The translations under genes and the position numbers were made by a program. 64,000 nucleotides of DNA from a virus, in the IMG/VR virus record IMGVR_UViG_3300012848_000031. One strand, given 5' to 3'. Below the pieces are notes generated by a model. That model ran no database searches, was not told the origin of the DNA, and was given only the letters and a program-made list of their open reading frames with translations. Position 1 is the first letter of the stretch. The number at the start of each line of letters is the position of its first letter. Shown in pieces: positions 25,522-61,625 of this stretch.

Positions 25522-25535
25522 CTTTGGAGAGTCAC

Positions 25536-26057
25536 ATGAAGCTGATGAATCGAGTCTTCGGACCCATGCTCGTGGTGGCGGCCGTCCTGATGACGGCAGT
25601 GCCGCAGCTGTCCTTCGCGACGGCGATGAGCGACTACCTCGAGAACCGCCTGATCGACGCGTTCCTCCGCGGCCAGTCGTACACGATGCCGACGACGGTG
25701 TACGTGGCACTTGCGACCACGACCGGCAGCGATACCTCCTGCGGCACCGAAGTGACCGGCGGCTCCTACGCGCGCGTGTCGGTGACGAGCTCGCTGGCGA
25801 ACTGGGCCGGCACGCAGAGCTCCGGTAGCACCGTTGCCTCCACAGGCACGAACGGCACCACGAGCAACAACAACGCGATCACGTTCCCGGCGCCGACCGG
25901 CAACTGGGGCACGGTCTCGGAGGTGTGCGTCTTCGACGCGAGCACCTCGGGGAACATGCTGTTCCGAACCGCGCTCACCGTGAGCAAGACCGTGAACAAC
26001 GGCGACGCGGCTCCGAGCTTCGCGGCGGCGGCCCTCACGTTCCAGATCGACAACTGA
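25536..26057 (+). CDS. Phage fibre-associated small protein with signal-peptide-like N-terminus
   Basis: MSDYLEN..ID..LRG...VYVAL.T...GTEV.GGSYAR...I.FP..TGNWGTV..FDA.T.GNML; preceded by ~30-aa hydrophobic leader. Confidence 0.65.
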   Translation: MKLMNRVFGPMLVVAAVLMTAVPQLSFATAMSDYLENRLIDAFLRGQSYTMPTTVYVALATTTGSDTSCGTEVTGGSYARVSVTSSLANWAGTQSSGSTVASTGTNGTTSNNNAITFPAPTGNWGTVSEVCVFDASTSGNMLFRTALTVSKTVNNGDAAPSFAAAALTFQIDN

Positions 26058-26749: not shown

Positions 26750-28429
26750 ATGGCCAACCGTCCATCGCGGATCGTCATCCCTGTGTATCAACCGAGCTTC
26801 GATGGCCGGTACTGGGGGCGCTACCCCAACGGTGACAAGCCGGCGAGCGATCCGGACATTGCGGCATCGGCCGCCGCGGCGGCTGCGGCAGCTGCGGGAC
26901 TGACCACTGGCATCCGGCCGAGAGGAACAGCAAGCGCCGTGGCGAGTGCAGGCGCTGGTCTTTCGACGGCGATCCGCCTCGGGGCTGGCGCGCAGGGTCG
27001 TGTTGCTGCTGGTGCGACATTCGAGGCGAACGTCATCAACGCCTCAGCGCTTACCCCGGCAGCAGTGCAAGCCGCCATCAACACCGCCTCGAATGGCCAG
27101 ATCGTCCAACTACCCGCTGGCAATGCAACGTGGACCAGCGGCGTTACCGTGACCGGCAAGTACGTCCACATTCGAGGAGCCGGCGGCGGCCGCGTAGAGG
27201 GCACGAGCACCAGCAGCGTTGCGGTGAGCGGCAGCGGTAGCAAGTCATTCACGGTGCGCGCCGGATCGACGATCACGGGATTCCTGGTCGGCGAAGTCGT
27301 CAGGGCACGGCACAAGTACAACTCGGCCAACTGGATCGAGGGCACGGTGTCGTCGTGGAACGGGACGACGCTCGTGATGGTGGCGACCAGTTCGAACGGC
27401 AGCGGAACGCAGAACCGGTGGGTCTTCGAGATTTCGCCCCAGACCAATATCGTCCATAGCGCGGGCGGCGGTGTGCTGTTCACACTGAACGAGCACGCTG
27501 CAGGGCACGTAGAGCTGTCTGAGGTGCGCCTCCAGAACGGCTCTGGCAGCGGCTACGGGATTCTGGTCAACGGCAATGGATTGCCGGTAAAGGTCCACGA
27601 TCTTCGCCTCTCCGGAATACATCAGGGCTACCGGAACAACACGTGCCGCGGCATCTGCTGGCGCATCTACGCCGATGCCGGGTTCAACATCAGCGCCAAC
27701 CACACGAACAACAACAACGCCATCCAAGTGACTGGTGGCAGCTCGTCCTCGTGGACCAGCGCAAACTCCATGGGCACCCGGGACACGACCGGGCGCCAGA
27801 ACTTCTACATCGAAGACTCGTACTTCTGCGGGCTCGTGTTGGGATGCATCGATTTCGGCGACAACGTGCGCGGCGTGTTCCGCCACAACGTGCTCGACTG
27901 CAGCGCCCTGACGCTTCATGGTTCAGACACGGACGTCTGGGGGTGCCGCCATCTTGAGGTCTATGACTGCCTTCTTGTTGACGACGCGCTCCCAGAGCCC
28001 GGCCTCAGCGCGAACCTCAATTACTGGATGACGTGGCGCGGCGGCTCCGGCGTGATCACGGACAACCAGTGCGACAACATCACGTCGTGGGCTTGGGGAA
28101 ACAAGCCAGAGTTGACACTGGAAGTGCAGCAGATCCGGCGCAACGCGGGCCCCTTCGCGTGCTGGACGGGCGGTTATCCGGTGCCGCGTCAGACGGGCCA
28201 AGGCCACAACGGCACCAGCTCGATCGTTGAGGGCGTCTACTACTGGAACAACTCCGGCACCTTCATTGCTCAGGCGAGCCAGTACAACCCGGACGAGTGT
28301 GGCAACGGCCTCTCCATCGGCACGTACATCCAGGTCAACCGCGATCACTTCGCGCGCGCGCCGCAGTCCGGGGATGCGATCCATCCTTGGACAAAGTATC
28401 CCTATCCGCATCCGCTGAGGACTAACTAA
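26750..28429 (+). CDS. Right-handed beta-helix (pectin-lyase-like) protein, possible tailspike/depolymerase
   Basis: VQAAINTASNGQIVQLPAG...IRGAG start motif; N/D-rich beta-strand repeats. Confidence 0.6.
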   Translation: MANRPSRIVIPVYQPSFDGRYWGRYPNGDKPASDPDIAASAAAAAAAAAGLTTGIRPRGTASAVASAGAGLSTAIRLGAGAQGRVAAGATFEANVINASALTPAAVQAAINTASNGQIVQLPAGNATWTSGVTVTGKYVHIRGAGGGRVEGTSTSSVAVSGSGSKSFTVRAGSTITGFLVGEVVRARHKYNSANWIEGTVSSWNGTTLVMVATSSNGSGTQNRWVFEISPQTNIVHSAGGGVLFTLNEHAAGHVELSEVRLQNGSGSGYGILVNGNGLPVKVHDLRLSGIHQGYRNNTCRGICWRIYADAGFNISANHTNNNNAIQVTGGSSSSWTSANSMGTRDTTGRQNFYIEDSYFCGLVLGCIDFGDNVRGVFRHNVLDCSALTLHGSDTDVWGCRHLEVYDCLLVDDALPEPGLSANLNYWMTWRGGSGVITDNQCDNITSWAWGNKPELTLEVQQIRRNAGPFACWTGGYPVPRQTGQGHNGTSSIVEGVYYWNNSGTFIAQASQYNPDECGNGLSIGTYIQVNRDHFARAPQSGDAIHPWTKYPYPHPLRTN

Positions 28430-30736
28430 GTGGCTGTCGGTTTTCCCTCGTCAACGTCCGCGACCTCGACGGACGCGGCCGGCGGTGGGTCAGTCAGCGT
28501 CGACGTCAATCCGCCACCCGGCCTCGCGCCCGGTGAGGCGTGGGGGATAGTTGCGATACTCGATACAGATGGCGGCACGATAGCAACGCCATCCGACTTC
28601 GAGCCTGCGCACGCGCAAATCAACGGGAATCCCGGATACCCGGCCCTCCGGACGTTCGTGAAGGCCGCTGGCGATGATGAGTCGGCCGTCACTGTGTCCG
28701 CGAGCGGCGGCCAGAACTACGTTCTGTGGTGCGCATCGATCCGCATTTCTGGCGCGGATGTGGATACCCCGATCGGAAACGTCTCTACGCCCTCAGTGCC
28801 GTCGGGTACTGGGGTGACGATCGAGGCGCCAGGTATCACGGTTCAGAAAGCAGGATCCGCAGCGCTCATGATTGTGGCGGCCTCGCCGACCGAAGGCGTC
28901 CTGTCGATTGCGCAGCCGGGCACTTCGACGCTCTTGCAAGCGCGCCATACGCCCAACGAGTATCCCTCGGGCGCCGTCGCATACGAGCTGCGAAACGCCG
29001 GTGCCTACACCCCTGGCACCTGGTCGCTCCATACCTCGAACGAGAGCGAGGGCCGTGTGGCCATCACGCTCGAGATCTCGCCGGCGGCGGGCGCTCCTGC
29101 CGAACTCGCAGGTGCCGCACAGGCGGTCGCCGCTGCATCGGGCACCCTCACCACACAGATCCGCGCTGCCGCTGCAGCCGCTGACGTCGCGAGTGCGACG
29201 GCCGCGATGACCACGAGCATTCGTCTCTCGGCCGCAGCCACCAACACTGCGGCCGCGACGGCGATCTTCGCCGCTGGGGCGGTCATGAACGCGGCCGCGC
29301 TCGACGTCGCGACGGCGACGGCAGCGCTCAGCACAGCGATTCGCGCGCAAGGCCATGCCGTTGACACCGCGATTGCAAGTGGCACGCTCACGAACTGGGC
29401 GACGGTCACTTTGGCCGGGGATCTCTACACAGGTCCGGGCGGCGCGTTGGCTCCCGACTTCTGGCTCGACTCCGCACCCGGGCCCGGCACCACGCTCTAC
29501 TACGACGCCCAGCACATCCAGATCTACCCGTCTGGGGAAATCAGCTCCGACACGAACGATTGTGTCGCCGTCGTGCAGTTCTTCGACGGGACGAGCTGGG
29601 CACTCGGCGTCATCGTTCTCACACCGCACCTGGCCGCTGCGGCAGAGGGCAGTGCCGCGGCCGCGGGACAGCTCACCACTGCTGTGCAGCTCGCCGCGGC
29701 GGCGTCAGCCCTCGCCACAACAACCGCTGCGTTCTCCACCGGCGCAGGACTGTCGGCGGACGCGACGGGTCAGGCCACTGCGGCAGGTGACCTCGCGACG
29801 CAGATCCCGTTGAGCGCCCTGGCGCAAGCCGTGTCTGCCGCCGCCGGGAACCTGAGCACGCAGATACAACTCGCCGCCGCAGCGACCGGGCGAGCAAGCG
29901 CTGATGGGAACCTCAATGGAGTGATCGCGCTGAACGCGGCGGCTGAAGCACTTGCCGCGTCACTTGCCGCACTGACCACCGGTGTGCCGCTCGGGGCCGC
30001 GGCACAAGGCTCGGCCGGTGCCACCGGCTCACTCACTACTGCGGTTCGCTTGTCGGGTGTTGCGGGAGCCGCGGTAAGCGCAATCGCGTCGTTGTCCACC
30101 CAGATCTCACTGGGCGGTGCTGCACAGAGCGCCGTGTCGTCGACCGGAGATCTCACGACCGCACGCCTACTGGTCGCCGCCGCGATCGATGCCGCGACCG
30201 CTACTGCGATCCTGGCCACCGGGATCTCGCTTCGGGCGAACGCGCTGGGCGTGTCGAGCGCCAGTGTCGAGCTCAGTACGGCCTCCGCGGCAATGGCGGA
30301 CGCCGCCGCCCAGACAACCGTCACCGCGCTACTGAGCGATGTCATCGAGTCCCCGCCCATCGGCGCGTATGTCCTCGATCCGGCCTATGTCGTCTCCAGG
30401 GCAGCTGCCGGCTTCGGTACGCGCAAGACGGCGCGCTTCAGGCCAAAGTTCCCGGATCAGGTCGCGGTGCTGACATTCGACGTGTCCGATCAACTCGCTC
30501 CCGATGAAAAACTGCAGGGCAAAGTCACCCTGCAGATCGCGTGCATCGCCGGCATGGACGCCGCCGCCACGAGTCTCTTTCGCGGCGTGCCCTCGTACGA
30601 CCCGACGTACAGGCGAATCCTGCAGCCCGTGCGCGGCGGCATCGACGCGTCGACTTACTACATCAAGGTTTCCGCGGCGACCACGAACCCCGAGAGGGAC
30701 GTGGCGCTCGCCGCGCTGCTGCCGGTGAAAGCATGA
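28430..30736 (+). CDS. Multidomain putative virion protein: N-terminal ~220-aa domain, 20-aa Ala-rich repeats, C-terminal domain
   Basis: See findings; C-terminal LTFDVSDQL...G...Y.IKV..ATT. Confidence 0.75.
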   Translation: MAVGFPSSTSATSTDAAGGGSVSVDVNPPPGLAPGEAWGIVAILDTDGGTIATPSDFEPAHAQINGNPGYPALRTFVKAAGDDESAVTVSASGGQNYVLWCASIRISGADVDTPIGNVSTPSVPSGTGVTIEAPGITVQKAGSAALMIVAASPTEGVLSIAQPGTSTLLQARHTPNEYPSGAVAYELRNAGAYTPGTWSLHTSNESEGRVAITLEISPAAGAPAELAGAAQAVAAASGTLTTQIRAAAAAADVASATAAMTTSIRLSAAATNTAAATAIFAAGAVMNAAALDVATATAALSTAIRAQGHAVDTAIASGTLTNWATVTLAGDLYTGPGGALAPDFWLDSAPGPGTTLYYDAQHIQIYPSGEISSDTNDCVAVVQFFDGTSWALGVIVLTPHLAAAAEGSAAAAGQLTTAVQLAAAASALATTTAAFSTGAGLSADATGQATAAGDLATQIPLSALAQAVSAAAGNLSTQIQLAAAATGRASADGNLNGVIALNAAAEALAASLAALTTGVPLGAAAQGSAGATGSLTTAVRLSGVAGAAVSAIASLSTQISLGGAAQSAVSSTGDLTTARLLVAAAIDAATATAILATGISLRANALGVSSASVELSTASAAMADAAAQTTVTALLSDVIESPPIGAYVLDPAYVVSRAAAGFGTRKTARFRPKFPDQVAVLTFDVSDQLAPDEKLQGKVTLQIACIAGMDAAATSLFRGVPSYDPTYRRILQPVRGGIDASTYYIKVSAATTNPERDVALAALLPVKA

Positions 30737-50432: not shown

Positions 50433-51998
50433 CTAGAGCGGTGGATGGCAGAGAACCCTGCCCCCGCTACCACACGTTCCTGTACTTGACAAAAGTGCAG
50501 AGGCGTGGCTCCAGCTCCAGTGCGCCATCAGGCCGCCACCAATCTCCGGCACCAGCCGGACCTCGCCGTTGAAGGCATCCCGCAGGATCACGCGTGCCTT
50601 GAGCGAGGCCCTAGAATCGCCGGCCAGCGCCGCAGTGATCTCCCGGCGAGCCACCTCGGCGGCCTTTGGGAGCATGGAAAGGACCCTGGCTGTCTTCTTC
50701 GCCGCCGGCTGCTGCGCGAGCAGCTCGCGGCGCTTGCCCTCAGCCAGGTCGATGGCCGCCTGCAACTCATCGGGCGTCATGTCGGGATCTCCATCTTTCA
50801 GGCGGGCACGCAGCCGTCCGATTCGTGCCTCGACGTCCTGGACTTCCCGGGGAGCCGTTTGCGTGCGACTCGCAGCGGCACGCTGCTGCTCGGCATACAC
50901 CGCCCGCATCTTCTCCGCGATCCGCCTCACGCTGTCCGGCCCGAGGTCCTCTCGGAGGCGACCCAGGAGCACATCCTCAGCCCGTTTGCGCCGGATGCGC
51001 ACGCCGTTCCCGCACAACCCGCCGCCGATGTGGTTCGAGCATGCGTAGCTGTGCGCATCCGCGATGACGTAGTGCGCCCCGCACGAATCGCACTTCAGGA
51101 GCCCCGACAGCAAATACTTGGGAGTACCGCCTGACGAGCGCTGCTCTGTGGCTGGGCGAAATCGCTTTTGCGCTCGCGCGAAGAGCTCATCGCTGACGAT
51201 CCGTAGCGACTCATCGTGATGAACGATCCACTCCGAGCGTGGCCGCGCAACGCGCTTGCGCTTCCCCGTGTCCGGATCCTTTCGCCACTCGCTCGTGTTC
51301 CAGTGGATCGCGCCGGTGTACCGCTCGTTGGTCAAAATTGCGCGGACGCCCGATCCCATCCAGCCAGCGGCACGGCGCACCGAGCGGTTCCAACTCGCAC
51401 CCGGTGAAGGAATCCGGCGAGCGTTAAGGTCGCTGGCGATAGTTCGGCAGCTCTCGCCATCGGCGAACCGGCCGAAGATCTCGCGCACGATGAAGGCCTC
51501 GCCCTTATCCACCTTGCCGTCGCGATATCCGTACGCGCGGCCGCCGGTCGGCTTGTGTTCCTTTGCGCGGCTCTCGAGCGCGGCGTACGTGCGGTCTTTC
51601 ACCATGTCGCGAAACGCCTCGCCGATGATCCCGGACAGTCCGGCCTGCAGCTTGTGACCGCGGCGGTTCGAGTCGTAGCCGTCCTGCACGCCGATGACGC
51701 GGATGCCTTTCGCGACCATCCGGTCGATCATCTTCGCAAGATCGCCCGTTGAGCGGCTCAGACGCGACAGGTCGGTGACGAGCACGACATCGAAACGGCG
51801 GGCGAGCGCAGCCTCCTGCAGGCGAAGCACGCCAGGTCGGTTGCCGAGGGCGGCGCCGCTGATACCTTCGTCGCTGAACTGTTCGACTACGCGCCAGCCT
51901 TCACGCGCGGCGTGCTCGACGCACACGCGCTGCTGATCAGTGATGCTGCTCTCGTTCTGACGATCGGTGCTGAAGCGGGTGTAGATAGTAGCTTTCAT
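50433..51998 (-). CDS. Large serine recombinase (integrase 2)
   Basis: IYTRFSTDRQ, DLSRLSR, recombinase domain, LLSGLLKCDSCG...Y.C, coiled coil. Confidence 0.95.
   Translation of the reverse strand: MKATIYTRFSTDRQNESSITDQQRVCVEHAAREGWRVVEQFSDEGISGAALGNRPGVLRLQEAALARRFDVVLVTDLSRLSRSTGDLAKMIDRMVAKGIRVIGVQDGYDSNRRGHKLQAGLSGIIGEAFRDMVKDRTYAALESRAKEHKPTGGRAYGYRDGKVDKGEAFIVREIFGRFADGESCRTIASDLNARRIPSPGASWNRSVRRAAGWMGSGVRAILTNERYTGAIHWNTSEWRKDPDTGKRKRVARPRSEWIVHHDESLRIVSDELFARAQKRFRPATEQRSSGGTPKYLLSGLLKCDSCGAHYVIADAHSYACSNHIGGGLCGNGVRIRRKRAEDVLLGRLREDLGPDSVRRIAEKMRAVYAEQQRAAASRTQTAPREVQDVEARIGRLRARLKDGDPDMTPDELQAAIDLAEGKRRELLAQQPAAKKTARVLSMLPKAAEVARREITAALAGDSRASLKARVILRDAFNGEVRLVPEIGGGLMAHWSWSHASALLSSTGTCGSGGRVLCHPPL
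50457..50472 (+). other. tRNA-3'-end-like sequence, candidate att junction
   Basis: CCTGCCCCCGCTACCA, within the last codons of integrase 2 (GSGGRV). Confidence 0.5.
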
Positions 51999-52342
51999 TC
52001 CGAAGCTCTCCGGCGCTCGATCTCCGCGCCTAGTTGGCCCTGTACATTCTTGCGCGCGCCGGACGCCATATCCGCTGATATTCGGTCGAACAACTCGGAA
52101 TAAGCCAACAACTCGACAACGCTTGCGTTACGCGGTGCCTTGTAAGTGGTAAGGAAGGAATGGAGGTTCACGTGATACTCGCGACCCAACCCATCGCCGG
52201 GACCTTGCATGATCGCAAGCGCCAAGGCATCGCCTCTTGAAGTCACAGCGCCCAGCCGCTCCAAAAAACCGCGAACATACTGCTTGCGTGCGTGGTGTTC
52301 GGCACGCCGTTCTTCGGTTGTCTTTTGTCGCGCCATGATCAC
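51995..52342 (-). CDS. Hypothetical protein
   Basis: ATGA-coupled to integrase; lower GC. Confidence 0.65.
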   Translation of the reverse strand: MIMARQKTTEERRAEHHARKQYVRGFLERLGAVTSRGDALALAIMQGPGDGLGREYHVNLHSFLTTYKAPRNASVVELLAYSELFDRISADMASGARKNVQGQLGAEIERRRASE

Positions 52343-52521
52343 TTCGCCTTCCGATACATCGCGAGCACGATGTCGACGCCCTCACGGATGTACGCCTGTT
52401 GCGGGACGCGCGTCGCGGCGCTCAGCGCTTTGAGTCCTTCGGCCTGCTCAGGGTCCAGATATGCCTGAACCGGTATCTTCTTCAATCGCAGGGTGTTTCG
52501 CTTTGTCTTCTTACGGGCCAC
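52339..52521 (-). CDS. Ribbon-helix-helix (CopG-like) regulator
   Basis: VQAYLDPEQAEGLKALSAATRVPQQAYIREGVD. Confidence 0.75.
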   Translation of the reverse strand: MARKKTKRNTLRLKKIPVQAYLDPEQAEGLKALSAATRVPQQAYIREGVDIVLAMYRKAK

Positions 52522-52537
52522 TGATGCGCCTTTGCAT

Positions 52538-52561
52538 TGCCACCACGTGCTAATGGTAGCA
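52538..52561. promoter_or_regulatory. Inverted repeat in divergent intergenic region
   Basis: TGCCACCA-N8-TGGTAGCA. Confidence 0.45.
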
Positions 52562-52570
52562 TAAGGAACT

Positions 52571-53146
52571 ATGAAGTCCAGGCGGTTTGACCGGGGCACG
52601 CCGATGAAGAAGAAAAACGTTCGAGTGAAGGTAGTTCAGTTGTCGGGCGGCAGGAGCGTGCGCGTCTGCGTCGCGCCTGATCTGATGCCGAACAAGTACG
52701 GGACCGCGTATACCCGCACCAAGCCGGCCGGGGGCGGATGGATCGTCGAGATCTTCGATATGCCGCCTGAGCAATTGATTGGTAATTACTTGGCTTTGCG
52801 ATCAAGGGGCCTTCCAGTGGAGGGCTTGCAAACGGAGATCGACGCGCTACTACGGCGATGGCTCAACGGAACTGATGCACGCACCGTCTTCTATCGTGAA
52901 AAGCAAAAGCGGAACATACGCTCGCCGGGGGAAAAGTTGGGCATGGCTATGTGCGCCGAAGTCATGCGACTCACTTCTAAGGGCATCGTTGAGGCTGAGG
53001 CCAAACGGGCCGTAGCCGACGCGTTTGGCGCGGAGGTTCGGACGGTCCAACGGCATTTCGCTCAGTATCAACCGAAGCTTGCACAGCAAGTCGACTTTAT
53101 GGGGGTCTACACGAAGAGGCTCATGTTCCGACGAGCGTTGGACTGA
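52571..53146 (+). CDS. Protein with C-terminal HTH (regulator)
   Basis: AEAKRAVADAFGAEVRTVQRHF. Confidence 0.6.
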   Translation: MKSRRFDRGTPMKKKNVRVKVVQLSGGRSVRVCVAPDLMPNKYGTAYTRTKPAGGGWIVEIFDMPPEQLIGNYLALRSRGLPVEGLQTEIDALLRRWLNGTDARTVFYREKQKRNIRSPGEKLGMAMCAEVMRLTSKGIVEAEAKRAVADAFGAEVRTVQRHFAQYQPKLAQQVDFMGVYTKRLMFRRALD

Positions 53147-53228
53147 ATCTGCGACACGAGATTTGTCAATAATTCTGTCGCGCCACCCAGAACGCTGACT
53201 ACTAACGTCCCACGTACCTAGGAGATAC

Positions 53229-53432
53229 GTGGACGAAATAGTGTATTTCTCGCTGGCCGTCGCAGCCGTGCGGATCGATCCGATACGCCCCCCGAGCATC
53301 GACACGATGCGTCGGTGGCATGACACCATTCACGGGCCGCGCGACACCTACGGACGGCGCATCTGGACGCCGGAGATCTGCGAGGCCGTCTGCCAAGCGC
53401 GTCTTGCCGCGCGGAACACGTCCACTACGTGA
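53229..53432 (+). CDS. Excisionase/AlpA-like small HTH protein
   Basis: SIDTMRRW...RDTYGRRIWT (MerR-type wing); GGAG RBS. Confidence 0.6.
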   Translation: MDEIVYFSLAVAAVRIDPIRPPSIDTMRRWHDTIHGPRDTYGRRIWTPEICEAVCQARLAARNTSTT

Positions 53433-53581
53433 GTTCCGCCGCATCGTTCCTTACGCCGGCCCAGCTCGACGAACTCGAGTGGGCCATCGCGCGCGCGGCA
53501 GTGCAGCGACTGATCAACGAAGCATCCGAAAACGAAAACGCCCCGCAGGACCGGCCAGGTGACTGCGGGGCGCGCGGATGA
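53429..53581 (+). CDS. Small protein coupled to helicase
   Basis: GTGA and ATGA overlaps; LEWAIARAAVQRL. Confidence 0.45.
   Translation: MSSAASFLTPAQLDELEWAIARAAVQRLINEASENENAPQDRPGDCGARG
53528..53572 (-). terminator. Hairpin with minus-strand T tail
   Basis: CGCCCCGCAG (53539-53548) / CTGCGGGGCG (53563-53572), minus-strand tail TTTTCGTTTT. Confidence 0.5.
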
Positions 53582-55269
53582 CGACGAGGATCGATGTCGT
53601 CCGCGAACAGCTTGTTGCAGCCGCCTCAGAGGAATATGTCCTCGGCAGCCTGCTGGTCGACGCGGCAACCTGGGCCGCCGCCCGGGACCTGACACCCACC
53701 CACTTCGCCAGACCCGCTCACAGCACCATTTACGCGGCGATTGCCGATCGCGCGTCCGCCGGGCGAGAAGTGGATCCGGTCCTTGTAGCAGAAAGCCTCC
53801 AAGCTGATGGGCACCTCGAGGAAGTAGGCGGCCTCGGATACATCGGCGATCTTGCGCGCAACACGACCAGCACCGCGAACATCCTGAGCCACGTCGAAGT
53901 GCTGAAGGAGTACGCGCAACGCCGGTGCCTGGCGGATCTGGGAGACCTCATCGCGCGGCGCGCCAGGTCCGCCGCCGCGGAATCAGTCGATCAGATCGCG
54001 AAGGAGGCGCTGGAGAGCATCCGGACTCTCGCGCCAGCCGCCCCCCATTCAATTCAGGCGCTCTCTCTGACGACCGATGACCTGCTCGGCACGGTGGAAC
54101 CCGAGCGCATGCTGCTCCCGGGAATCCCCACTGAAGCGTACTCGCTGATCGCCGGCGCCCTAAGCTCCTACAAATCAACTCTCCTGATTTACCTCGCGCT
54201 CTGGCGCGCCACAGGCTTCGATCTGCTGGACCTCGACCCGGGAGGCTCTGGTGTCGATATCGGTCCGGTGATGCTCGTGTTCTACGAGGACTCGGATCGC
54301 AGGATGGTGAATCGCTTCCGGCGCATCACTCAGGCCGCCCACGCGCAGATCCGAGCCGTTCACGGAATCGCCGATGCCGACAGGTTCATCCGGTGCGCCG
54401 CCGCCAACATCCGCCGGGTGCCACTGACCGGCCAGGCCGGTGCTACGATCGTGCGGAGGGCCGAATCAACCTGCGTGCCCAACTTCGGTCTGATAGACGA
54501 ACTCAAGCGCGCCGCTCACACATTCACTCAGTCGGACCTTCTGCTCGCGCTCGACCCTCTGAGACTCGCCATCGTCGGCAGCCAGAACGACGATGACGGT
54601 GCGGACGTTGTGGTCCACACACTTAACCATATGGCCACGATGATGCCCAACTCCGGCCTCGCGGTCGCCTCACACACGACCAAAGCCGAAGCTCGGGAAC
54701 CGGCCGAAGGCTACACCGCCGCCGCCTACGCTACCTCGGGCTCGGCGCTCTACAGCCAGCACGCCCGCAGCAACTTCCTCATGTTTCGGCTGCGGCCCGA
54801 TGCCGCCGCGCCCTTCGCGCCCAACCTCTCCCCGGCAGAGCTCGCACGGCAACCGATCGCGAAGCTGATCCACGGGCGGCTTAGCCATGGCGCCGAGTCC
54901 GGTGAACGCGTGCTCCAAATGAAGGACGGCATTCTCGTGCCGCTCGCCACCCGCAAGGAGCCCGACACCGCGAGCAAGATGGTGGAGTTCGGGCACATCG
55001 TCGCCCAGGCCCTCGAACGTCTCGCCGCCAGCGGCGTGCGCGCCTCGGCAACGGCCCTACGCGAGGACCCGGAGATACGGCGCTACGGCGGGTCAGACGG
55101 CAAGGTGCGCCGCCTACTCTCGCTCCTGGAAGAGAACGGCTACCTCGTGTTCGAGGGCAAGACCAAGGATCGCGTCGGTACGCTCACGCCGAATGGGCGG
55201 GCAATCTTCGCAGCCACGAATCATCACGAAACCCACCAAGGAGGGGGTCGCACTCATGGCGCCGACTGA
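53578..55269 (+). CDS. DnaB N-terminal domain fused to RepA/AAA_25-type helicase
   Basis: E..VLGSLL...HF..PAH..IY.AI...VDPV.V...L....LEEVGGL.YI.DL; GALSSYKST, YED, LDPL, SHTTK. Confidence 0.75.
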   Translation: MTTRIDVVREQLVAAASEEYVLGSLLVDAATWAAARDLTPTHFARPAHSTIYAAIADRASAGREVDPVLVAESLQADGHLEEVGGLGYIGDLARNTTSTANILSHVEVLKEYAQRRCLADLGDLIARRARSAAAESVDQIAKEALESIRTLAPAAPHSIQALSLTTDDLLGTVEPERMLLPGIPTEAYSLIAGALSSYKSTLLIYLALWRATGFDLLDLDPGGSGVDIGPVMLVFYEDSDRRMVNRFRRITQAAHAQIRAVHGIADADRFIRCAAANIRRVPLTGQAGATIVRRAESTCVPNFGLIDELKRAAHTFTQSDLLLALDPLRLAIVGSQNDDDGADVVVHTLNHMATMMPNSGLAVASHTTKAEAREPAEGYTAAAYATSGSALYSQHARSNFLMFRLRPDAAAPFAPNLSPAELARQPIAKLIHGRLSHGAESGERVLQMKDGILVPLATRKEPDTASKMVEFGHIVAQALERLAASGVRASATALREDPEIRRYGGSDGKVRRLLSLLEENGYLVFEGKTKDRVGTLTPNGRAIFAATNHHETHQGGGRTHGAD

Positions 55270-55393
55270 GCATTTGATTCGTGATACGCCCCTAACGGGG
55301 GGATGTCGTCACGAATCGAATGACGACTCCCCCCGCTGTCCCCCGTTTCGTGGCGAATCACGAGTATCACGAATCATCACGAATGCCCACGAA
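55215..55393. repeat. CACGAA iteron cluster (putative origin)
   Basis: CACGAA at 55215, 55225, 55310, 55368, 55378, 55388; CACGAG at 55359; inverted at 55278, 55347. Confidence 0.75.
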
Positions 55394-55583
55394 AGGAGGA
55401 AAGACCCTGCGCTCCCGACTTTCTCGGCCGCCTAAAAAAGGGCACGCCCTCGCATCGCCCCAATCTTTCGCATGCTGTGTTCGTCGGCGTGCAGGGTCAG
55501 GTGGTAGCGGGGACCCGATTTGTACGCCTACGGAGGAAGTTCAGTTGAGTCAGAGAGTTGCTCGAAATCATCACTCCGGGCGG

Positions 55584-55766
55584 ATGTTCCCTTCGGTTCC
55601 CCTGGCCGTGACGAAGCGTGGCCGCCGCTGGGCGCAGTGCCCGGAGTGCACGGCGATCTGCGCGCGGATCCCGCCCGGCGCGATGGACCACGTGTGCACT
55701 CACTGCCAGGCCGCATTTACGCTCGTCGCGGACGGCCGTAGCGCGTCTAGCGAGGTGCAGGCGTGA
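55584..55766 (+). CDS. Zn-ribbon protein
   Basis: CPEC...CTHC. Confidence 0.55.
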   Translation: MFPSVPLAVTKRGRRWAQCPECTAICARIPPGAMDHVCTHCQAAFTLVADGRSASSEVQA

Positions 55767-55852
55767 TCGCCCTCGCTGTCATCGCGGTGCTCCTGATACT
55801 GGTGGAGGCCGGGGCAACGGTTGCCTTGGTCTGGGAGGCGTGGCGCTCATGA
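55763..55852 (+). CDS. Tiny hydrophobic peptide
   Basis: GTGA/ATGA coupling; 29 aa single TM. Confidence 0.35.
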   Translation: MIALAVIAVLLILVEAGATVALVWEAWRS

Positions 55853-56298
55853 CGCGCAAGGTCACCACACCGCCCCCCGGGCCGCTCGTTGCGATTCACG
55901 GCCTCAAGAAGCAGCCGCCAACGGATGCCGCAGCCCGGATCGAGGAGTACGCCGCCGACGGTTTTACCGTGCCAGGAATCGCCGGGAAGCTCGGGGTTGC
56001 CAAGAGCACCCTCCAGAACTGGATGCAGGAGAACGCGGAGCTTGCCGACGCGCTTTCGCGCGGGCGAGCGAAGGAGGAGCACGCCCTATCCAAGCGCCTG
56101 TATCGGATTGCCATGGAATCCGACGACAAGGCGGCCGTCACCGCCTGCATCTTCCTGCTGAAGGGGAAGTTCGGTTGGCGCGAGGGCGAGCGCCCCGAGG
56201 AAGGCAACCGGGTGAACATCACCTTCAATCTGCCCGGTGCAATGTCGCGCGAGGACTTCTTGAAGACAGTTGTGCCGGCGGAGGTGACCCGTGACTGA
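55849..56298 (+). CDS. Terminase small subunit-like HTH protein
   Basis: GIAGKLGVAKSTLQNW...LSRGR...L...A...A.IFLLKGKFGWRE; overlaps terL start. Confidence 0.7.
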   Translation: MTRKVTTPPPGPLVAIHGLKKQPPTDAAARIEEYAADGFTVPGIAGKLGVAKSTLQNWMQENAELADALSRGRAKEEHALSKRLYRIAMESDDKAAVTACIFLLKGKFGWREGERPEEGNRVNITFNLPGAMSREDFLKTVVPAEVTRD

Positions 56299-57706
56299 GC
56301 CGGCCACTCAGATGCGCCTCTCACCACTTCAGCAGCGCGTGCTCGGCCTGCCGGAGCTGTACGACCTCTTCCTGGGCGGCGGGCGTGGAGGCGCCAAGAC
56401 CTACACGCTGCTGCTGCTCGCCTTGCGGTTCGTCGCGCAGTACACCGACCGCGCGCGCGTGCTGTTGCTGAGATTGACTTACAAGGGGCTCGCCGATATC
56501 GAGCTGCAGAGCCGCATGCTATTCGCGGAGGTCTTCGGCACCGACGCGAGATACAACCAGGCGGAACACACCTGGAGACTCCCGAACGGCGGATATCTGG
56601 AGTTCGGGCAACTCGAATCCGCCGCCGACTACACAAAGTATCAGGGCAGAAACTTTGGTCTGCTGCTGGTCGATGAAGCCGGCCAGTACGCCTCCCCCGA
56701 TCTGCTCGACCTCGTGCGCTCCAACCTGCGCGGCCCGAAGGATGTGCCGACTCGTGTGGTGATGAGCGCGAATCCGGGCGGGCCTGGGCATCACTGGCTC
56801 GCGCGGCGCTACGTGTTTCGTGCGGCTCCCTGGACGCCGTTCCACGAAGAAAAATCGAAGCGAGAGTGGATCTACTGCCCGACCACTTACCTCGACAACC
56901 CGTTCATCGATGCCCAGCAGTATCGTGATCAGCTCGAAAGCGCCTGCCCCTCAGACCCCGAGCTTCTCCGCGCGTGGCTCGAAGGTGACTGGGCAGTTGC
57001 ACGTGGTGCGTACTTCGCCAAGACGCTCGAGGAGTCGCGCATTGCCGTCGGACCGTTCACGCCGGGCAAGCTGCCAACGACGCGTGAGATCCCCAAGGGC
57101 AAGCACTACGCCGAAAGCGTTCCATGGGACATCTGGCTTGCGCTCGACCACGGAAGCGCCGCGCCGTCCGTGTGCTACCTGATGGCACGGAGCCCTGGCG
57201 CAAGCTACGAAGACAAATTCTACCCGCGCGACTCCATTCTGGTCCTCGATGAGTACGCGATATATCGGCGGGATAACCTGAATTTGGGCCTCGGCTGGAC
57301 TGCAGCCCAGACTGCGGAAGCCATTGTCGAGTGGTGCAGGACGTGGCACGTGAAGCCGCGTGGAGTGGCGGACGATGCGTGCTTCAGCAGCACCGGCCAT
57401 AACACGACGATCGCGGATGAATACGCGCGGTGCGGCGTGACACTCGAACCTGCTCGCAAGGGCGACCGTGTGTCAGGTTGGCACCGGATGCGCCGGATGC
57501 TCGCCGATGCCGGCAAGCCCGATGTGCCCGGGCTCTACGTCTCACGCGGCTGCGAGTACTTCTGGTCGACGGTCCCTTACCTTGCCCGCGACTCGAAGCG
57601 AATAGAAGACGTCGACTCGAGCGGCCCCGACCACGGTGCTGACGCGCTTAGGTATGGGCTTCTCCGCGTCAAACACGTTACGCGAATCACGCCCCTCCAC
57701 ATCTGA
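56291..57706 (+). CDS. terL: Terminase large subunit
   Basis: GGRGGAKT, LVDEAGQY, SANPGGPGHHWL, DNPF, WLEGDW, LDHG, DHGADALRYG. Confidence 0.9.
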   Translation: MTEPATQMRLSPLQQRVLGLPELYDLFLGGGRGGAKTYTLLLLALRFVAQYTDRARVLLLRLTYKGLADIELQSRMLFAEVFGTDARYNQAEHTWRLPNGGYLEFGQLESAADYTKYQGRNFGLLLVDEAGQYASPDLLDLVRSNLRGPKDVPTRVVMSANPGGPGHHWLARRYVFRAAPWTPFHEEKSKREWIYCPTTYLDNPFIDAQQYRDQLESACPSDPELLRAWLEGDWAVARGAYFAKTLEESRIAVGPFTPGKLPTTREIPKGKHYAESVPWDIWLALDHGSAAPSVCYLMARSPGASYEDKFYPRDSILVLDEYAIYRRDNLNLGLGWTAAQTAEAIVEWCRTWHVKPRGVADDACFSSTGHNTTIADEYARCGVTLEPARKGDRVSGWHRMRRMLADAGKPDVPGLYVSRGCEYFWSTVPYLARDSKRIEDVDSSGPDHGADALRYGLLRVKHVTRITPLHI

Positions 57707-57729
57707 CAATCCACACGAAGGAACCGATC

Positions 57730-57924
57730 ATGAAACTGAAACCCATCGCAACCAACGACGCCGCCATGGCCGCCCAGTCGGTCGCGGATGTCCAACGCGC
57801 TCGCGAAGCGGTCACGCAGCGCGAAACGGCGACCCAGCGCTTGCGTGACGAGGGCGATCGAATCGCCGATCAGCGCGCCGCCATCAACCGCCACTATTAC
57901 GCCACGAACGGCGGTGCGAAATGA
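57730..57924 (+). CDS. Small coiled-coil protein
   Basis: AAGGAA RBS; ATGA-coupled downstream. Confidence 0.6.
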   Translation: MKLKPIATNDAAMAAQSVADVQRAREAVTQRETATQRLRDEGDRIADQRAAINRHYYATNGGAK

Positions 57925-58793
57925 CCGCCCGATTTCGATACATCGATGGCAACGGCATCGAACAACCACTCATCCGAAGTGACTGGACCTTCCCGACGGA
58001 TGATGGCGACTTCGCGACTTTGTACAACGTCGCGAAGTCCAGCGCCGAGTTGGTCACGCAGTTTCACGCGAAGCGCGCGGCGCTGGGCGTGAACATCACG
58101 CCGGCCGAGCAGGCGGAGGCCATCAGAAAAGGTCCCACCGCGCTGGACGAGCTCTATCGCGCGCGGCGCGCACTGGCGGAGCGCGCCCTCGCGTTCCTGA
58201 CCCTGGAGACGCTCGCGACGCGCGAAGGCGGCCCAGTCACTGGGCTGCGCGCGATCGAAATGAGCCTTCCGGTGCGTGCGCGGGGGCTGGCGAAGATCGA
58301 GCCCTGGAACCCACAAACCCTGGCTATTGATCGGTGGCTCCTCGATGTGCTGATGAGCAAAGGCGCCACGGAACGAACTCAGTTCATGCTCGAAATGAAG
58401 GACGGCCAGCACAGCGCGACAGCTCGTGCACTACTGCGGACCGCGGACGTGCCCGAGTTGCTCCCCCTGAAGCTCGCCGAGCCAGACCTCACGGCCATCA
58501 CGAACGCCGTCGCGAGGTGCGAGGCGCCGCAACAGATGGCCGCGCTCGATGAGCTGCACCACGCGGCCGTCGTCGCACGCGCCACCTGGAAGGCATCGGT
58601 CTCGCGGATCGCGGAGGCCTCCGGCCTCGAGCGCGAAGACCTTGCGAAGACGTTGGGCGCCTCGCTGGTTCGCTACGAACAGCCGGGCCACGACGGCCTC
58701 AATGACCCGCACTGGGCCGAGTTCATCGGGACGGGGCGAAGGAGAGAAAGCGCTCCAGCCCCAGCTAATGCCCTGTCCTTCATCGCTAACTAA
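57921..58793 (+). CDS. Unknown helical protein (290 aa)
   Basis: Intact ORF with coding codon bias; no family recognised. Confidence 0.75.
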   Translation: MTARFRYIDGNGIEQPLIRSDWTFPTDDGDFATLYNVAKSSAELVTQFHAKRAALGVNITPAEQAEAIRKGPTALDELYRARRALAERALAFLTLETLATREGGPVTGLRAIEMSLPVRARGLAKIEPWNPQTLAIDRWLLDVLMSKGATERTQFMLEMKDGQHSATARALLRTADVPELLPLKLAEPDLTAITNAVARCEAPQQMAALDELHHAAVVARATWKASVSRIAEASGLEREDLAKTLGASLVRYEQPGHDGLNDPHWAEFIGTGRRRESAPAPANALSFIAN

Positions 58794-58921
58794 TGCAAGA
58801 GGGCGTTTTACTCGTGAGTCACGCCAAGCAACGAAGCAACCGCGAGCGCCCGCGGGGCTGGTCTGGTTTCGTACCTACTCCGCCGCCCGCGGCGGGCAAT
58901 TATTAACGAGGAGATCATTAC

Positions 58922-60667: not shown

Positions 60668-61287
60668 TGAGCACGACCTCCTGGTCGATCGACTTGCGTG
60701 CCTGGGCCGAGGGCGTGAAGGCCGATATCGACACCGTGGTTCGGGAGGTCGCTCTCGAGCTGCTCACGCGGATCGTCATGCGCTCCCCGGTGGGCAATCC
60801 CGAGATCTGGGCCGCGAACGCCGAGGTGATGCGCCAACGCGCCTCGTACAACGACAACGTGGCGCGCACAAACTCGCTGATCGATGCGCATCCCGAATGG
60901 CGTCTGAAGTACGGGCGACTGAAGAAGCAACGCACCGCGAGTGCGCGAACGATCAACCGGAAACTGCCGCTGCCGACTGGCAAGGGCTACGTCGGCGGAC
61001 GTTTCAGAGCGAATTGGCGAGTATCGATCGGTGCGCCGGACACTCGCACGTATCCCGAGACCGTGCTCGATCCGACGGGCCAGATATCGATCGGCGCCGG
61101 CATCGATGCGCTCGGCACGTACCGAACTTCAGATGGCACGATTCACATCATGAATTCGCTTCCGTATGCGCAAGCCTTGGAGTTTCAAAGTCATTCCAAG
61201 CAGGCGCCGGCCGGCATGGTGAGAGTGACAATCGCGGAGGTCGCACAGGTGGTCGCCGCGAAGGTGAGAGAAGTTTCCAACACATAG
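60667..61287 (+). CDS. HK97 gp10-like tail-completion protein
   Basis: IVMRSPVG...GGRFRANW.VS.G.P...NSLPYA..LE...S.QAPAGMVR. Confidence 0.75.
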   Translation: MSTTSWSIDLRAWAEGVKADIDTVVREVALELLTRIVMRSPVGNPEIWAANAEVMRQRASYNDNVARTNSLIDAHPEWRLKYGRLKKQRTASARTINRKLPLPTGKGYVGGRFRANWRVSIGAPDTRTYPETVLDPTGQISIGAGIDALGTYRTSDGTIHIMNSLPYAQALEFQSHSKQAPAGMVRVTIAEVAQVVAAKVREVSNT

Positions 61288-61298
61288 GAGATTCAACG

Positions 61299-61604
61299 AT
61301 GACTTTTAGACTCAATGCAGACCCGACGTTCCTGGCTACGGTGAAAATCCCGAAGGCTGGCACCAAGCCCGAAGCAATAAATTTCACCTTCAAACACCGA
61401 AAAAAGGGCGAGTTCGACGCCTTCCTCAAGGGCGCCAAGGATCTACCCGACGTCGACTACATTTTTGAGATCGCGCTGGGCTGGGATCTCGATGACGAAT
61501 TCAACAGGGAGAATGTCGCTCGGCTCCTCGAGAACTATCACGGGGCCGCACAGGCCATCACGCTCACGTACGTGAGCGAGCTCAGCGGCACCTCGTTGTC
61601 CTAA
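61299..61604 (+). CDS. Tail assembly chaperone
   Basis: F.L...PTF...VKIP..G...I.FTFKHR...GWDL.DEF..ENV..LL.NY. Confidence 0.8.
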   Translation: MTFRLNADPTFLATVKIPKAGTKPEAINFTFKHRKKGEFDAFLKGAKDLPDVDYIFEIALGWDLDDEFNRENVARLLENYHGAAQAITLTYVSELSGTSLS

Positions 61605-61625
61605 CCCAGAAGGGGGCGCTCCGCC

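What the first reader, a model, noticed from the sequence alone, without database searches (positions are those of the whole stretch)
28430..29095. Prophage and neighbouring satellite share a ~220-aa domain (about 66% identical by hand)
Seen: MAVGFPSSTSATSTDAAGGGSV...PSGAVAYELRNAG.Y.PGTWSLH (28430) aligns almost without gaps to MAVAFPSSTQTASSDAAGGGSV... (58922). I counted about 147/221 identities. A 23-nt identical stretch occurs at 28712-28734 and 59204-59226. The C-terminal parts are unrelated, and I noticed no other such sharing between the two elements. Inference: domain exchange between phage and satellite. The domain may be a receptor-binding or docking module that lets the satellite attach its own protein to helper particles or compete with the helper's version.
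Basis: partly seen in the sequence, partly recalled or inferred. Interest (0 to 1): 0.8.

Follow-up and report, generated by a model that had tools for sequence, protein, structure and literature searches.

The report
Shared fibre-tip domain, prophage and island
A prophage and the small phage-like island next to it carry the same rare 220-residue domain, which most likely sits at the outer tip of neck-attached fibres and is swapped between phage elements as a ready-made cassette.

Summary
The N-terminal ~219 residues of the proteins at 28430-30736 (768 aa) and 58922-60667 (581 aa) are 65% identical (E 1e-91), and the rest is unrelated.

- **Rarity.** The sequence family is rare, about 70 clusters among 1.84 billion representatives. 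It has no Pfam or PHROG model and no convincing PDB relative. The two copies are sisters in the family tree (support 100/98).
- **Age.** dS is 1.1-1.7 and nucleotide identity about 70%, so the sharing is old, not a recent transfer inside this genome. Omega is about 0.14-0.21.
- **Fold.** An AlphaFold model (pLDDT 95) shows two beta-sandwiches. This fold is common in mycobacteriophage "minor tail proteins" and in bacterial surface or secreted multidomain proteins.
- **The prophage protein.** It reads as tip domain, then sixteen 20-residue "rope" repeats, then a Gp77-like collar domain. A Gp80-type fibre-monomer gene and a beta-helix depolymerase-like gene lie beside it. This resembles a GP4/Bas63-type collar-whisker fibre.
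- **A swapped cassette.** A related phage keeps the rope and collar (61-63% identical) but carries a different tip domain and a different enzyme domain. The junction is the same Gly/Ala linker where similarity to the island protein ends.
- **The island protein.** It is a common 240-320-residue phage structural protein that has gained this domain.

Best reading: an exchangeable distal specificity (probably glycan-binding) module, rather than a docking module. A helper-satellite link between these two elements is not shown.

The parts
28430..29086 (+). Shared N-terminal domain of P0001 (residues 1-219): two beta-sandwich halves, ending in the EI.PA-Gly/Ala junction
   Evidence: BLASTP 65% to P0002. 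AF2 model pLDDT 95.4, all-beta. Two jelly-roll halves, residues 1-108 and 110-220.
29087..29404 (+). P0001 rope block 1 (residues ~220-325): about five 20-residue Ala-rich repeats with an L-[ST]-T-x-I-x-L motif
   Evidence: Motif positions 240, 260 and 300, with spacings in multiples of 20. The same register is seen in P0073.
29405..29644 (+). Small non-repeat insert inside the rope (residues ~326-405)
   Evidence: It interrupts the 20-residue register (115-residue gap between motifs). It is conserved in P0073.
29645..30349 (+). P0001 rope block 2 (residues ~406-640): about eleven 20-residue repeats
   Evidence: Motif positions 415, 455, 475, 515, 535, 555 and 595.
30350..30736 (+). P0001 C-terminal Gp77-like (Ig-like collar / fibre-tail adaptor) domain: the proposed virion anchor
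   Evidence: Pfam PF23148 at E 0.019, covering 78 of 84 profile positions. The ortholog P0073 scores E 3e-5, 24.9 bits against a cut-off of 27. Atlas features score 0.92 with 215 shared; structure TM 0.71 and 0.58 to Gp77-bearing clusters.
58922..59575 (+). Shared N-terminal domain of P0002 (residues 1-218)
59576..59593 (+). Gly6 linker between the domain and the body of P0002
   Evidence: Read from the sequence. Relatives have the same Gly-rich junction.
59594..60667 (+). P0002 body: member of a large family of 240-320-aa phage structural proteins of unknown function, possibly neck or adaptor
   Evidence: 514 short homologs, up to 76% identical, none with the N-domain. Atlas structure TM 0.31 to SU10_adaptor and Phage_connect_1 clusters, which is a weak lead only. 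The gene lies directly upstream of a Neck1 gene here and two genes upstream of one in L020.
25524..26057 (+). Gp80-type chain-fibre (whisker) monomer gene with a signal-peptide-like N-terminus
   Evidence: PF23140 Gp80 at E 5.4e-44; phrog_240. Alignment.
26750..28429 (+). 559-aa protein, immediately followed by P0001 with no gap: N-terminal rope-like repeats followed by a right-handed beta-helix (depolymerase-like) domain
   Evidence: Atlas features 0.87-0.93 and TM 0.5-0.69 to Beta_helix, NosD and pectate-lyase clusters. Only the N-terminal part (residues 8-94) is clearly shared with the 890-aa protein of the related phage, at 55% identity; a looser BLAST setting stretches a 39% alignment to residue 171.
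27032..29066 (+). Cassette that differs from the related phage L007: enzyme domain of the 559-aa protein plus the shared N-domain, flanked by conserved sequence
   Evidence: Protein similarity to L007_890 is clear only to residue 94, so the left edge is approximate. DNA similarity to L007 starts at 29067.
60667..61287 (+). Neck1 / tail-completion (HK97 gp10-like) gene of the island, directly downstream of P0002
   Evidence: phrog_169 at E 7e-45.
50433..64000 (.). The neighbouring island; it runs past the window end
   Evidence: Gene list from L001: serine recombinase, DnaB-like helicase, TerS, TerL, 64 aa, 290 aa, P0002, Neck1, TAC, lambda-type tape measure, then host genes. It has no portal, capsid, tube, baseplate or lysis genes.

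Best explanation
The shared ~219-residue region is a self-contained two-beta-sandwich module. It is displayed at the outer (distal) end of neck-associated virion appendages and acts as a host-specificity element. It most probably binds a surface polysaccharide alongside a depolymerase.

In the prophage it caps a collar-whisker or chain-like fibre. The C-terminal Gp77-like Ig domain would anchor the protein on the neck. The sixteen 20-residue repeats would form the 'rope' on which Gp80-type dimers are threaded. The N-terminal domain would then lie at the free tip.

In the island the same module is joined by a Gly6 linker to a widespread structural protein encoded next to the neck gene.

The module moves between phage elements by recombination at its conserved EI.PA-Gly/Ala junction. 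The two copies here descend from one such event, or from one gene pool tied to this host, long ago. Both are kept under purifying selection.

Shown: the homology, the sister relation, the fold, the common junction, the cassette swap, and the architecture at sequence level. Inferred: virion location, polarity, and glycan binding.
For: 1. Both comparisons give one module boundary. P0001 matches P0002 up to 29085. P0001 matches the related phage's P0073 from 29067 onward.
2. The phage L007 is related to the prophage: MCP 53%, cement 70%, neck genes 62-70% identical. It keeps the rope and collar at 61-63% but has replaced the N-domain together with the adjacent enzyme domain of the upstream gene. 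That is one contiguous ~2-kb cassette. This is the pattern expected of host-range determinants, not of virion anchors.
3. Anchor-like features are C-terminal. The Gp77-like domain is supported, and a Gp80-family gene lies in the same cluster. In GP4, Bas63 and A1002 an Ig-like collar or nozzle holds a rope on which Gp80-like dimers sit, and in A1002 the rope's N-terminus is distal (PMC12609058; PMC13730344).
4. The stalk has strict 20-residue periodicity.
5. The family gene lies directly downstream of a carbohydrate-active enzyme in four contexts. These are apiosidase-like GH in L002, L005 and L008 and the beta-helix protein here. It is fused to that GH in P0036.
6. The fold recurs at TM 0.7-0.85 in extracellular bacterial proteins carrying PKD, FN3, cellulase, LamG or cell-wall-anchor domains. 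It also recurs in phage minor tail proteins.
7. Family members sit in several virion modules: after the capsid gene (P0007), in a lambda-like tail-tip cluster (P0040), and between portal and capsid (L011). This is typical of a promiscuous decoration module.
8. Relatives of P0002's body lack the domain.
9. Omega of 0.14-0.21 shows that both copies are maintained.
Against: - No binding, virion location or ligand has been shown.
- The Gp77 assignment is below Pfam's threshold.
- The identity of P0002's body as a neck or adaptor protein rests on gene position and a TM of 0.31 only.
- No PDB structure with a known ligand matches the domain. The best VIA Z is 5.8, over half the domain.
- In P0036 the domain is N-terminal to a glycosidase. 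That is the usual place of a virion anchor in tailspikes and fits docking better.
- In GP4 the chain-like fibre folds up and docks on the capsid, so a rope-tip domain could be a capsid-docking piece.
- Stand-alone ~240-aa family members need some way to attach, and I could not identify it.
Confidence: 0.5

Rival explanations
1. Docking module. The N-domain is a protein-protein interface. It would fasten its carrier to the virion, for example the rope tip onto the capsid as in GP4. Alternatively it would serve as a platform that recruits the separately encoded depolymerase. The island's P0002 would then plug into, or compete for, the same partner made by a helper phage.
For: - The family gene and a glycosidase or beta-helix gene are neighbours in four contexts and fused in P0036, with the domain N-terminal as in tailspike anchors.
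- GP4 fibres dock on the capsid.
- Many family members are domain-only proteins that could act as adaptors.
- The N-domain and the enzyme domain are swapped together between the prophage and L007. This would also be expected of two interacting partners.
Against: - L007 keeps capsid, cement and neck proteins at 53-70% identity yet carries an N-domain that is barely recognisable as related (hhalign E 0.004). This argues against a capsid or neck partner.
- The same fold sits in many non-viral extracellular proteins.
- The island has no depolymerase gene and shares no other structural gene with the prophage.
Confidence: 0.25
2. Helper-satellite co-adaptation. The island is a satellite of this very prophage. 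It keeps a copy of the helper's tip domain so that particles carrying the island adsorb like, or compete with, helper particles.
For: - The two elements are adjacent, and each domain is the other's closest known relative.
- The island lacks capsid, portal, tube and lysis genes but has intact packaging and neck genes.
- Both elements use paralogous serine recombinases.
Against: - dS of 1.1-1.7 shows no ongoing homogenisation.
- Terminase, neck or tail genes are not related between the two.
- The island's chaperone and tape measure are lambda/siphovirus-type, while the prophage is a sheathed myovirus.
- No second genome could be found in which to test co-variation.
Confidence: 0.2
3. The domain is itself an enzyme acting on a surface polymer, not a binding module.
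For: - Several charged or aromatic positions are nearly invariant across 60 members: W38, D45, K78, E84 and R105.
- The domain travels with carbohydrate-active enzymes.
- The weak Foldseek rows include two-jelly-roll enzymes such as PNGase F and PHM.
Against: Those structural rows have TM of about 0.2 and are not significant. There is no match to any enzyme family in Pfam or PHROGs. In cellular proteins the fold appears as an accessory domain beside recognisable catalytic domains.
Confidence: 0.08

Closest known systems
Collar-whisker / chain-like fibre systems: Ralstonia podophage GP4 (Gp77 fibre-tail adaptor, rope protein, Gp80 Fiber-1 dimers; Zheng et al., J Mol Biol 2023, as cited in PMC12609058), E. 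coli myophage Bas63 (PMC12609058), Pseudomonas podophage A1002 nozzle-rope fibre (PMC13730344)
   Same: - A Gp80-family gene is present (PF23140, E 5e-44).
- There is a Gp77-like Ig domain, and a long periodic polypeptide that could serve as a rope.
- Rope and collar are fused in one chain, as in Bas63.
- The system sits on a myovirus, as in Bas63.
   Different: - The rope here is much longer: 16 repeats, against 2 dimers in Bas63, 5 in GP4 and 11 in A1002.
- It ends in a 219-residue globular N-terminal domain. The descriptions I read mention no such domain.
- A beta-helix depolymerase-like protein with rope-like repeats is encoded in the same cluster.
- Rope-dimer binding was not shown here.
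Mosaic exchange of receptor-binding or decoration modules among phages of one host, for example swapped tail-fibre tips, Ig-like domains and carbohydrate-binding modules added to Dit, Tal or neck-passage proteins of lactococcal phages
   Same: A discrete module with a conserved linker junction, found on different scaffold proteins at different virion positions. It is swapped between otherwise related phages.
   Different: The module is at the N-terminus rather than the C-terminus. Its fold has no solved representative, and no ligand is known.
Phage satellites that bring their own virion parts: capsid-forming PICIs with their own connectors, and PLE of Vibrio cholerae
   Same: A small integrase-bearing island with its own terminase and neck or tail-assembly genes, and with no capsid or lysis genes.
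   Different: No helper is identified. The island carries a tape measure but no tube. The N-domain fusion to its structural protein was found in no other protein of comparable length (422-1344 aa) in the 5.8-billion-cluster search, and all 514 shorter relatives of the body lack it.
Mycobacteriophage 'minor tail proteins' and Rhizobium/Sinorhizobium phage proteins with the same predicted fold (BFVD)
   Same: The same two-sandwich fold (TM 0.6-0.75, E down to 1e-9), either stand-alone (~200-250 aa) or as a domain of larger tail proteins. One such protein carries a glycerophosphodiesterase.
   Different: Sequence identity is only 12-21%, the hosts are different, and the function of those proteins is also unknown.

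Membership tests
GP4/Bas63-type collar-whisker (chain-like fibre) system | Gp80-family fibre monomer encoded with it | tested here: met
   Window 25524-26057 hits PF23140 at E 5.4e-44, 150 bits against a cut-off of 27. The same is true in related locus L008 and in L026.
GP4/Bas63-type collar-whisker (chain-like fibre) system | Gp77-type Ig-like collar / fibre-tail adaptor domain | tested here: inconclusive
   P0001 C-terminus hits PF23148 at E 0.019, 15.9 bits, below the cut-off of 27. Ortholog P0073 scores E 3e-5, 24.9 bits, still just below. Atlas features 0.92 and TM 0.71 to Gp77-bearing clusters.
GP4/Bas63-type collar-whisker (chain-like fibre) system | Rope polypeptide with repeated docking strands for fibre dimers | tested here: inconclusive
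   About sixteen repeats of exactly 20 residues with a beta-strand-like motif. Whether Gp80-like dimers bind them is not known.
GP4/Bas63-type collar-whisker (chain-like fibre) system | Mounted on the connector of the virion | not testable with these tools
   Needs cryo-EM or proteomics of particles.
Phage satellite of the neighbouring prophage | Lacks genes for a complete virion but has its own integration, replication and packaging genes | tested here: met
   Gene list of L001; PHROG hits.
Phage satellite of the neighbouring prophage | Structural or packaging compatibility with that helper (shared or matching portal-binding, neck or tail parts) | tested here: not met
   Apart from the N-domain and the recombinase, no gene of the island resembles one of the prophage. 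The tail parts are of siphovirus type, while the prophage is sheathed.
Phage satellite of the neighbouring prophage | Mobilised on helper induction | not testable with these tools
   Experimental.
Carbohydrate-binding / adhesin decoration module | Fold or sequence match to a module with a known glycan ligand | tested here: inconclusive
   No Pfam hit. PDB Foldseek gives nothing at E <= 0.001. VIA Z <= 5.8 to TNF/C1q-like jelly rolls and a lactococcal RBP head, over half the domain only. AFDB and Atlas matches are to unannotated domains of extracellular proteins.
Carbohydrate-binding / adhesin decoration module | Occurs beside carbohydrate-active enzymes and on varied scaffold proteins | tested here: met

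The most novel reading that the evidence does not exclude
The capsid-less island has captured the specificity tip of a resident phage's neck fibre and welded it onto its own neck-proximal structural protein. Particles that carry the island would then display the same host-adhesion module as, or compete with, the helper. This would be a satellite that tunes adsorption rather than only capsid size or packaging. The domain itself would define a new, unsolved fold family of phage adhesins that is swapped together with depolymerase domains as a two-gene host-range cassette.
Probability: 0.2. Interest if true: 0.75.

Novelty: new variant of a known kind. Interest (0 to 1): 0.5.

Why it matters
Chain-like, collar-anchored fibres were described structurally only in 2023-2026, and what their ends do is open. 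Here a rope-collar fusion carries a well-folded, exchangeable tip domain that is co-swapped with a depolymerase domain. That gives a concrete candidate for the host-recognising part of such fibres. It also gives a defined cassette boundary for host-range engineering in laboratory phages.

The domain has no Pfam model and no solved structure, although its fold is common in phage "minor tail proteins" and in bacterial surface proteins. A structure with a ligand would annotate many proteins at once.

If the island is a satellite, its fusion of this domain to a neck-side protein would be a new kind of satellite adaptation. If not, the case is an ordinary but clean example of phage mosaicism.

Tried and rejected
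- **Single-sequence AlphaFold of whole P0002.** pLDDT was 33, so the model was unusable. This spent one of two fold jobs, so the bodies of P0001 and P0002 could not be modelled.
- **Complex prediction.** I folded two Gp80-like chains with a 66-residue rope segment. The result was no verdict (score 0.12, mark 0.32). It counts neither for nor against binding.
- **Foldseek against PDB.** Nothing at E <= 0.001.
- **VIA-align wide.** Only Z <= 5.8 to TNF/C1q-like jelly rolls, covering half the domain. I therefore did not file the domain as a TNF-like trimeric head.
- **Searches that found no relative.**
  - Two genome-contig scans.
  - tblastn of the N-domain and of the P0001 C-terminus against 50,697 phage records.
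  - Profile searches of PDB sequences with the P0001 C-terminus and with the P0002 body.
- **Scans that added little.** The metagenome scan gave only three short loci. The viral scan with the 60-sequence alignment failed for lack of conserved stretches. Repeated with 9 sequences, it gave five loci.
- **No whole genome is held for this window**. The organism was therefore not named, and no relatives could be surveyed for co-variation.
- **Readings considered and dropped.**
  - The prophage as a transposable Mu-like phage: it has no transposase. It has a serine recombinase, RecT and an exonuclease instead. Only the head module is Mu-like.
  - P0002's body as capsid protein or portal: there are no Pfam or PHROG hits, and homologs co-occur with complete lambda-type head genes in L023.
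  - Recent gene conversion between the copies: identity is even along the domain at 60-83% per 60-nt window, with a single 23-nt exact run.
Full report
**1. The observation**

Two ORFs on the + strand, 28430-30736 (768 aa, P0001) and 58922-60667 (581 aa, P0002), share their N-terminal ~219 residues. BLASTP gives 143/219 identical, 79% positives and one gap, with E 1e-91. Nothing else in the two proteins aligns.

At DNA level, 58923-59574 matches 28431-29085 at 69.8%. The flanks are unrelated.

The only other similarity between the two elements is a modest one between their large serine recombinases, at 1-1500 and 50433-51998, both on the minus strand.

**2. The two elements**

The first element runs from before the window start to about 49.9 kb and is a temperate myovirus. 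Its genes are:
- serine recombinase, ParB-like, exonuclease and RecT;
- TerL, portal, Mu-F-like head morphogenesis protein, DUF2213 protease/scaffold, cement protein and major capsid protein;
- sheath, tape measure, baseplate, a conventional tail fibre and endolysin.

P0001 lies in a five-gene insertion between the Mu-F-like gene and the protease. That insertion holds:
- a Gp80-family gene (PF23140, E 5e-44);
- a 129-aa protein with a signal-peptide-like start;
- a 60-aa ORF;
- a 559-aa protein;
- P0001, which starts at the base after the 559-aa gene's stop codon.

The second element was read to its end on a 615-kb metagenome contig (L001). It consists of serine recombinase, two small genes, DnaB-like helicase, TerS, TerL, a 64-aa and a 290-aa protein, P0002, a Neck1/tail-completion gene (phrog_169), a TAC_4 chaperone and a lambda-type 860-aa tape measure. 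Host genes follow. It has no portal, capsid, tube, baseplate or lysis genes.

It is either a satellite-like island or a heavily deleted siphovirus prophage. I confirmed its gene content but not its mobility.

**3. How rare the domain is**

- Neither protein hits Pfam or PHROGs.
- An exhaustive HMMER search of 1.84 billion cluster representatives found 70 clusters at E <= 0.001, the nearest 55% identical.
- A word-index search of 5.8 billion clusters, limited to proteins of 422-1344 aa, found only the two window proteins.
- 50,697 phage genomes gave no hit.
- IMG/VR gave five loci, the best 52% identical.
- The JGI metagenome scan gave three loci.

In a maximum-likelihood tree of 63 members the two window copies are sisters (100/98). 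The next clade is P0004 plus the IMG/VR locus L008 (100/94).

Caveat: short relatives more than 50% identical to P0001 would be hidden inside its cluster. They were not sought with the word index.

**4. Age and selection**

dN is 0.23-0.27, dS is 1.1-1.7, omega is 0.14-0.21 and third-position identity is 49%. The copies have been apart for a long time, and both are under purifying selection. A recent transfer inside this genome is excluded.

**5. Fold**

With a 60-sequence alignment, AlphaFold2 gives pLDDT 95.4 and pTM 0.92. The model is all-beta. It consists of two sandwich halves, residues 1-108 and 110-220.

No solved structure matches convincingly. Predicted structures do match:
- **AFDB clusters:** TM 0.7-0.81, E 1e-9. 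The fold appears as a domain of bacterial proteins annotated Ig-like, PKD, FN3, LamG, cellulase or 'mannose-sensitive agglutinin'.
- **ESM Atlas:** TM 0.79-0.85. Matches include cell-wall-anchor, PKD, metallophosphatase and DUF6701 proteins, and 230-aa viral proteins.
- **BFVD:** 69 viral hits. Many are mycobacteriophage 'minor tail proteins', and one is a Microbacterium phage tail protein with a glycerophosphodiesterase domain.

So the fold is widespread and unannotated, while the sequence family is rare.

**6. Architecture of P0001**

After the domain comes a stalk whose L-[ST]-T-x-I-x-L motif recurs at spacings that are exact multiples of 20 residues. There are about 16 repeats, in two blocks separated by an ~80-residue insert.

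The last ~100 residues resemble Pfam Gp77, the Ig-like fibre-tail adaptor (collar) of podophage GP4:
- E 0.019 for P0001, covering 78 of 84 profile positions;
- E 3e-5 and 24.9 bits for its 63%-identical ortholog P0073;
- Atlas feature score 0.92, and TM 0.71 and 0.58 to Gp77-bearing clusters.

In GP4, Bas63 and A1002 an Ig-like collar or nozzle holds a 'rope' polypeptide. Dimers of Gp80-like protein are threaded onto it by beta-augmentation. In Bas63 the rope is an N-terminal extension of the collar protein. In A1002 the N-terminus of the rope is the distal end (PMC12609058; PMC13730344).

P0001, with a Gp80-family gene two genes upstream, fits this plan as collar plus rope plus an extra tip domain.

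In the IMG/VR phage L008 the same parts seem to be separate genes. They are Gp80-like, apiosidase-like GH, a stand-alone 248-aa family member, a 252-aa Ala-rich periodic protein and a 105-aa protein.

**7. The module is swapped as a cassette**

P0073 (774 aa, locus L007) is 61-63% identical to P0001 from about residue 190 to the end. Its N-terminal 190 residues are only marginally related to the family (hhalign E 0.004).

L007 is a relative of the prophage: cement protein 70%, capsid 53% and three neck genes 62-70% identical.

The gene upstream of P0073 (890 aa) clearly shares only its first 87 residues with the 559-aa protein here, at 55% identity. Those residues include rope-like repeats. 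A looser BLAST setting extends a 39% alignment to residue 171, so this edge is approximate.

The rest of the 559-aa protein is a right-handed beta-helix of pectate-lyase type according to the Atlas (features 0.87-0.93, TM 0.5-0.69).

At DNA level the similarity between window and L007 starts at 29067, while the similarity to P0002 ends at 29085.

So one contiguous segment differs between two related phages. It runs from about 27032 to 29066 and holds the enzyme domain plus the N-domain. Its right-hand junction is the conserved EI.PA-Gly/Ala linker, the same junction used in P0002. The family alignment shows this Gly-rich junction in all close members.

**8. P0002**

Its body (residues 228-581) has more than 514 homologs of 30-318 aa, typically 240-318 aa. 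They are up to 76% identical over the first ~170 residues, and none carries the N-domain.

These homologs lie in structural gene clusters:
- two genes upstream of a Neck1 gene in L020, with the same gene order in L027;
- inside a ~10-kb block between portal and protease of a lambda-like head module in L023;
- between portal and capsid in phage MW202621.1.

The Atlas model gives only TM 0.31 to SU10-adaptor and Phage_connect_1 clusters. A neck or adaptor role is therefore a lead, not a finding.

P0002 is thus a common structural protein that has acquired the domain through a Gly6 linker.

**9. Gene neighbourhoods of family members**

| Member | Context |
|---|---|
| L002, L005, L008 | apiosidase-like GH (PF13204) directly upstream |
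| P0036 | fused to that GH |
| P0007 | after an HK97-type capsid gene |
| P0040 | in a lambda-like tail-tip cluster after the tape measure |
| L011 | between portal/adaptor and capsid, next to a minor-tail-like gene |
| L005 | followed by a Neck1 gene |

Several long members (P0006, P0018-20, P0040) have the same plan as P0001. That plan is domain, Gly linker, many ~20-residue repeats and a small C-terminal domain.

**10. Interpretation**

In both window proteins the conserved, lineage-matched parts are C-terminal and look like virion anchors. The N-domain is the part that is exchanged, and it is exchanged together with a depolymerase-like domain. The fold is otherwise found on extracellular proteins and tail proteins.

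I therefore read it as a distal specificity module, probably glycan-binding, with confidence 0.5.

Docking is the main rival, at 0.25. The partner could be the capsid, as GP4 fibres dock there, or the depolymerase.

That the island is a satellite of this particular prophage, and keeps the domain for that reason, is possible at 0.2. It is unsupported by any other shared part, and the two have different tail types.

**11. Verdict**

This is a clean case of module exchange involving an uncharacterised but widespread fold. It sits on what looks like a new variant of the recently described collar-whisker fibres. Interest is moderate, at 0.5.

Noticed in passing
window 25524-25625 and 26116-26180: The Gp80-like protein and the 129-aa protein both start with a signal-peptide-like hydrophobic segment. 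In phage A1002 the first ~30 residues of a Gp80-like fibre protein are missing from the virion (PMC13730344), which suggests a processed leader.
   Followed up: partly
window 26750-27031 versus L007 2-262: The 559-aa beta-helix protein has two rope-like repeats at its N-terminus (GLTTGIRP, GLSTAIRL). This part is 55% identical over 87 residues to the 890-aa protein of the related phage. The enzyme may therefore be tied into the same fibre through this conserved end.
   Followed up: partly
window 1-1500 (-) and 50433-51998 (-): Both elements carry a large serine recombinase at their left ends. The two are paralogs (35-63% identity in tblastx segments, and one 136-nt patch of 69% nt identity). 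The two elements lie in tandem.
   Followed up: partly
P0002 residues 228-400 (window 59603-60121): This stretch is 70-76% identical to hundreds of ~241-aa proteins from many metagenomes. That is unusually high conservation for a phage structural protein with no Pfam or PHROG family.
   Followed up: partly
L014 821-2634: In an IMG/VR contig whose TerL is 63% identical to the island's TerL, a Neck1-like gene (29% identical to window 60667-61287) lies directly upstream of TerL. This is an unusual gene order.
   Followed up: no
L023 6658-16613: A lambda-like head module (GpA terminase, portal_2, ClpP protease, gpD-like, gpE-like) is interrupted between portal and protease. The ~10-kb interrupting block has no Pfam hits and includes a homolog of the P0002 body. 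This echoes the accessory insertion in the prophage here.
   Followed up: no
P0021 (455 aa): This protein carries two modules in tandem. An N-terminal ~190 residues resemble, by eye, the divergent P0073-type domain. A canonical family domain follows at residues 194-398.
   Followed up: no
P0004 and P0008 C-termini: After the Gly-rich linker, stand-alone family members end in a similar short hydrophobic tail (…NLMLLGVG, …KLLLLGVGC). This may be their attachment peptide.
   Followed up: no
window 57921-58793: The 290-aa helical protein between TerL and P0002 has no relative in IMG/VR by pattern scan and no Pfam or PHROG hit.
   Followed up: partly
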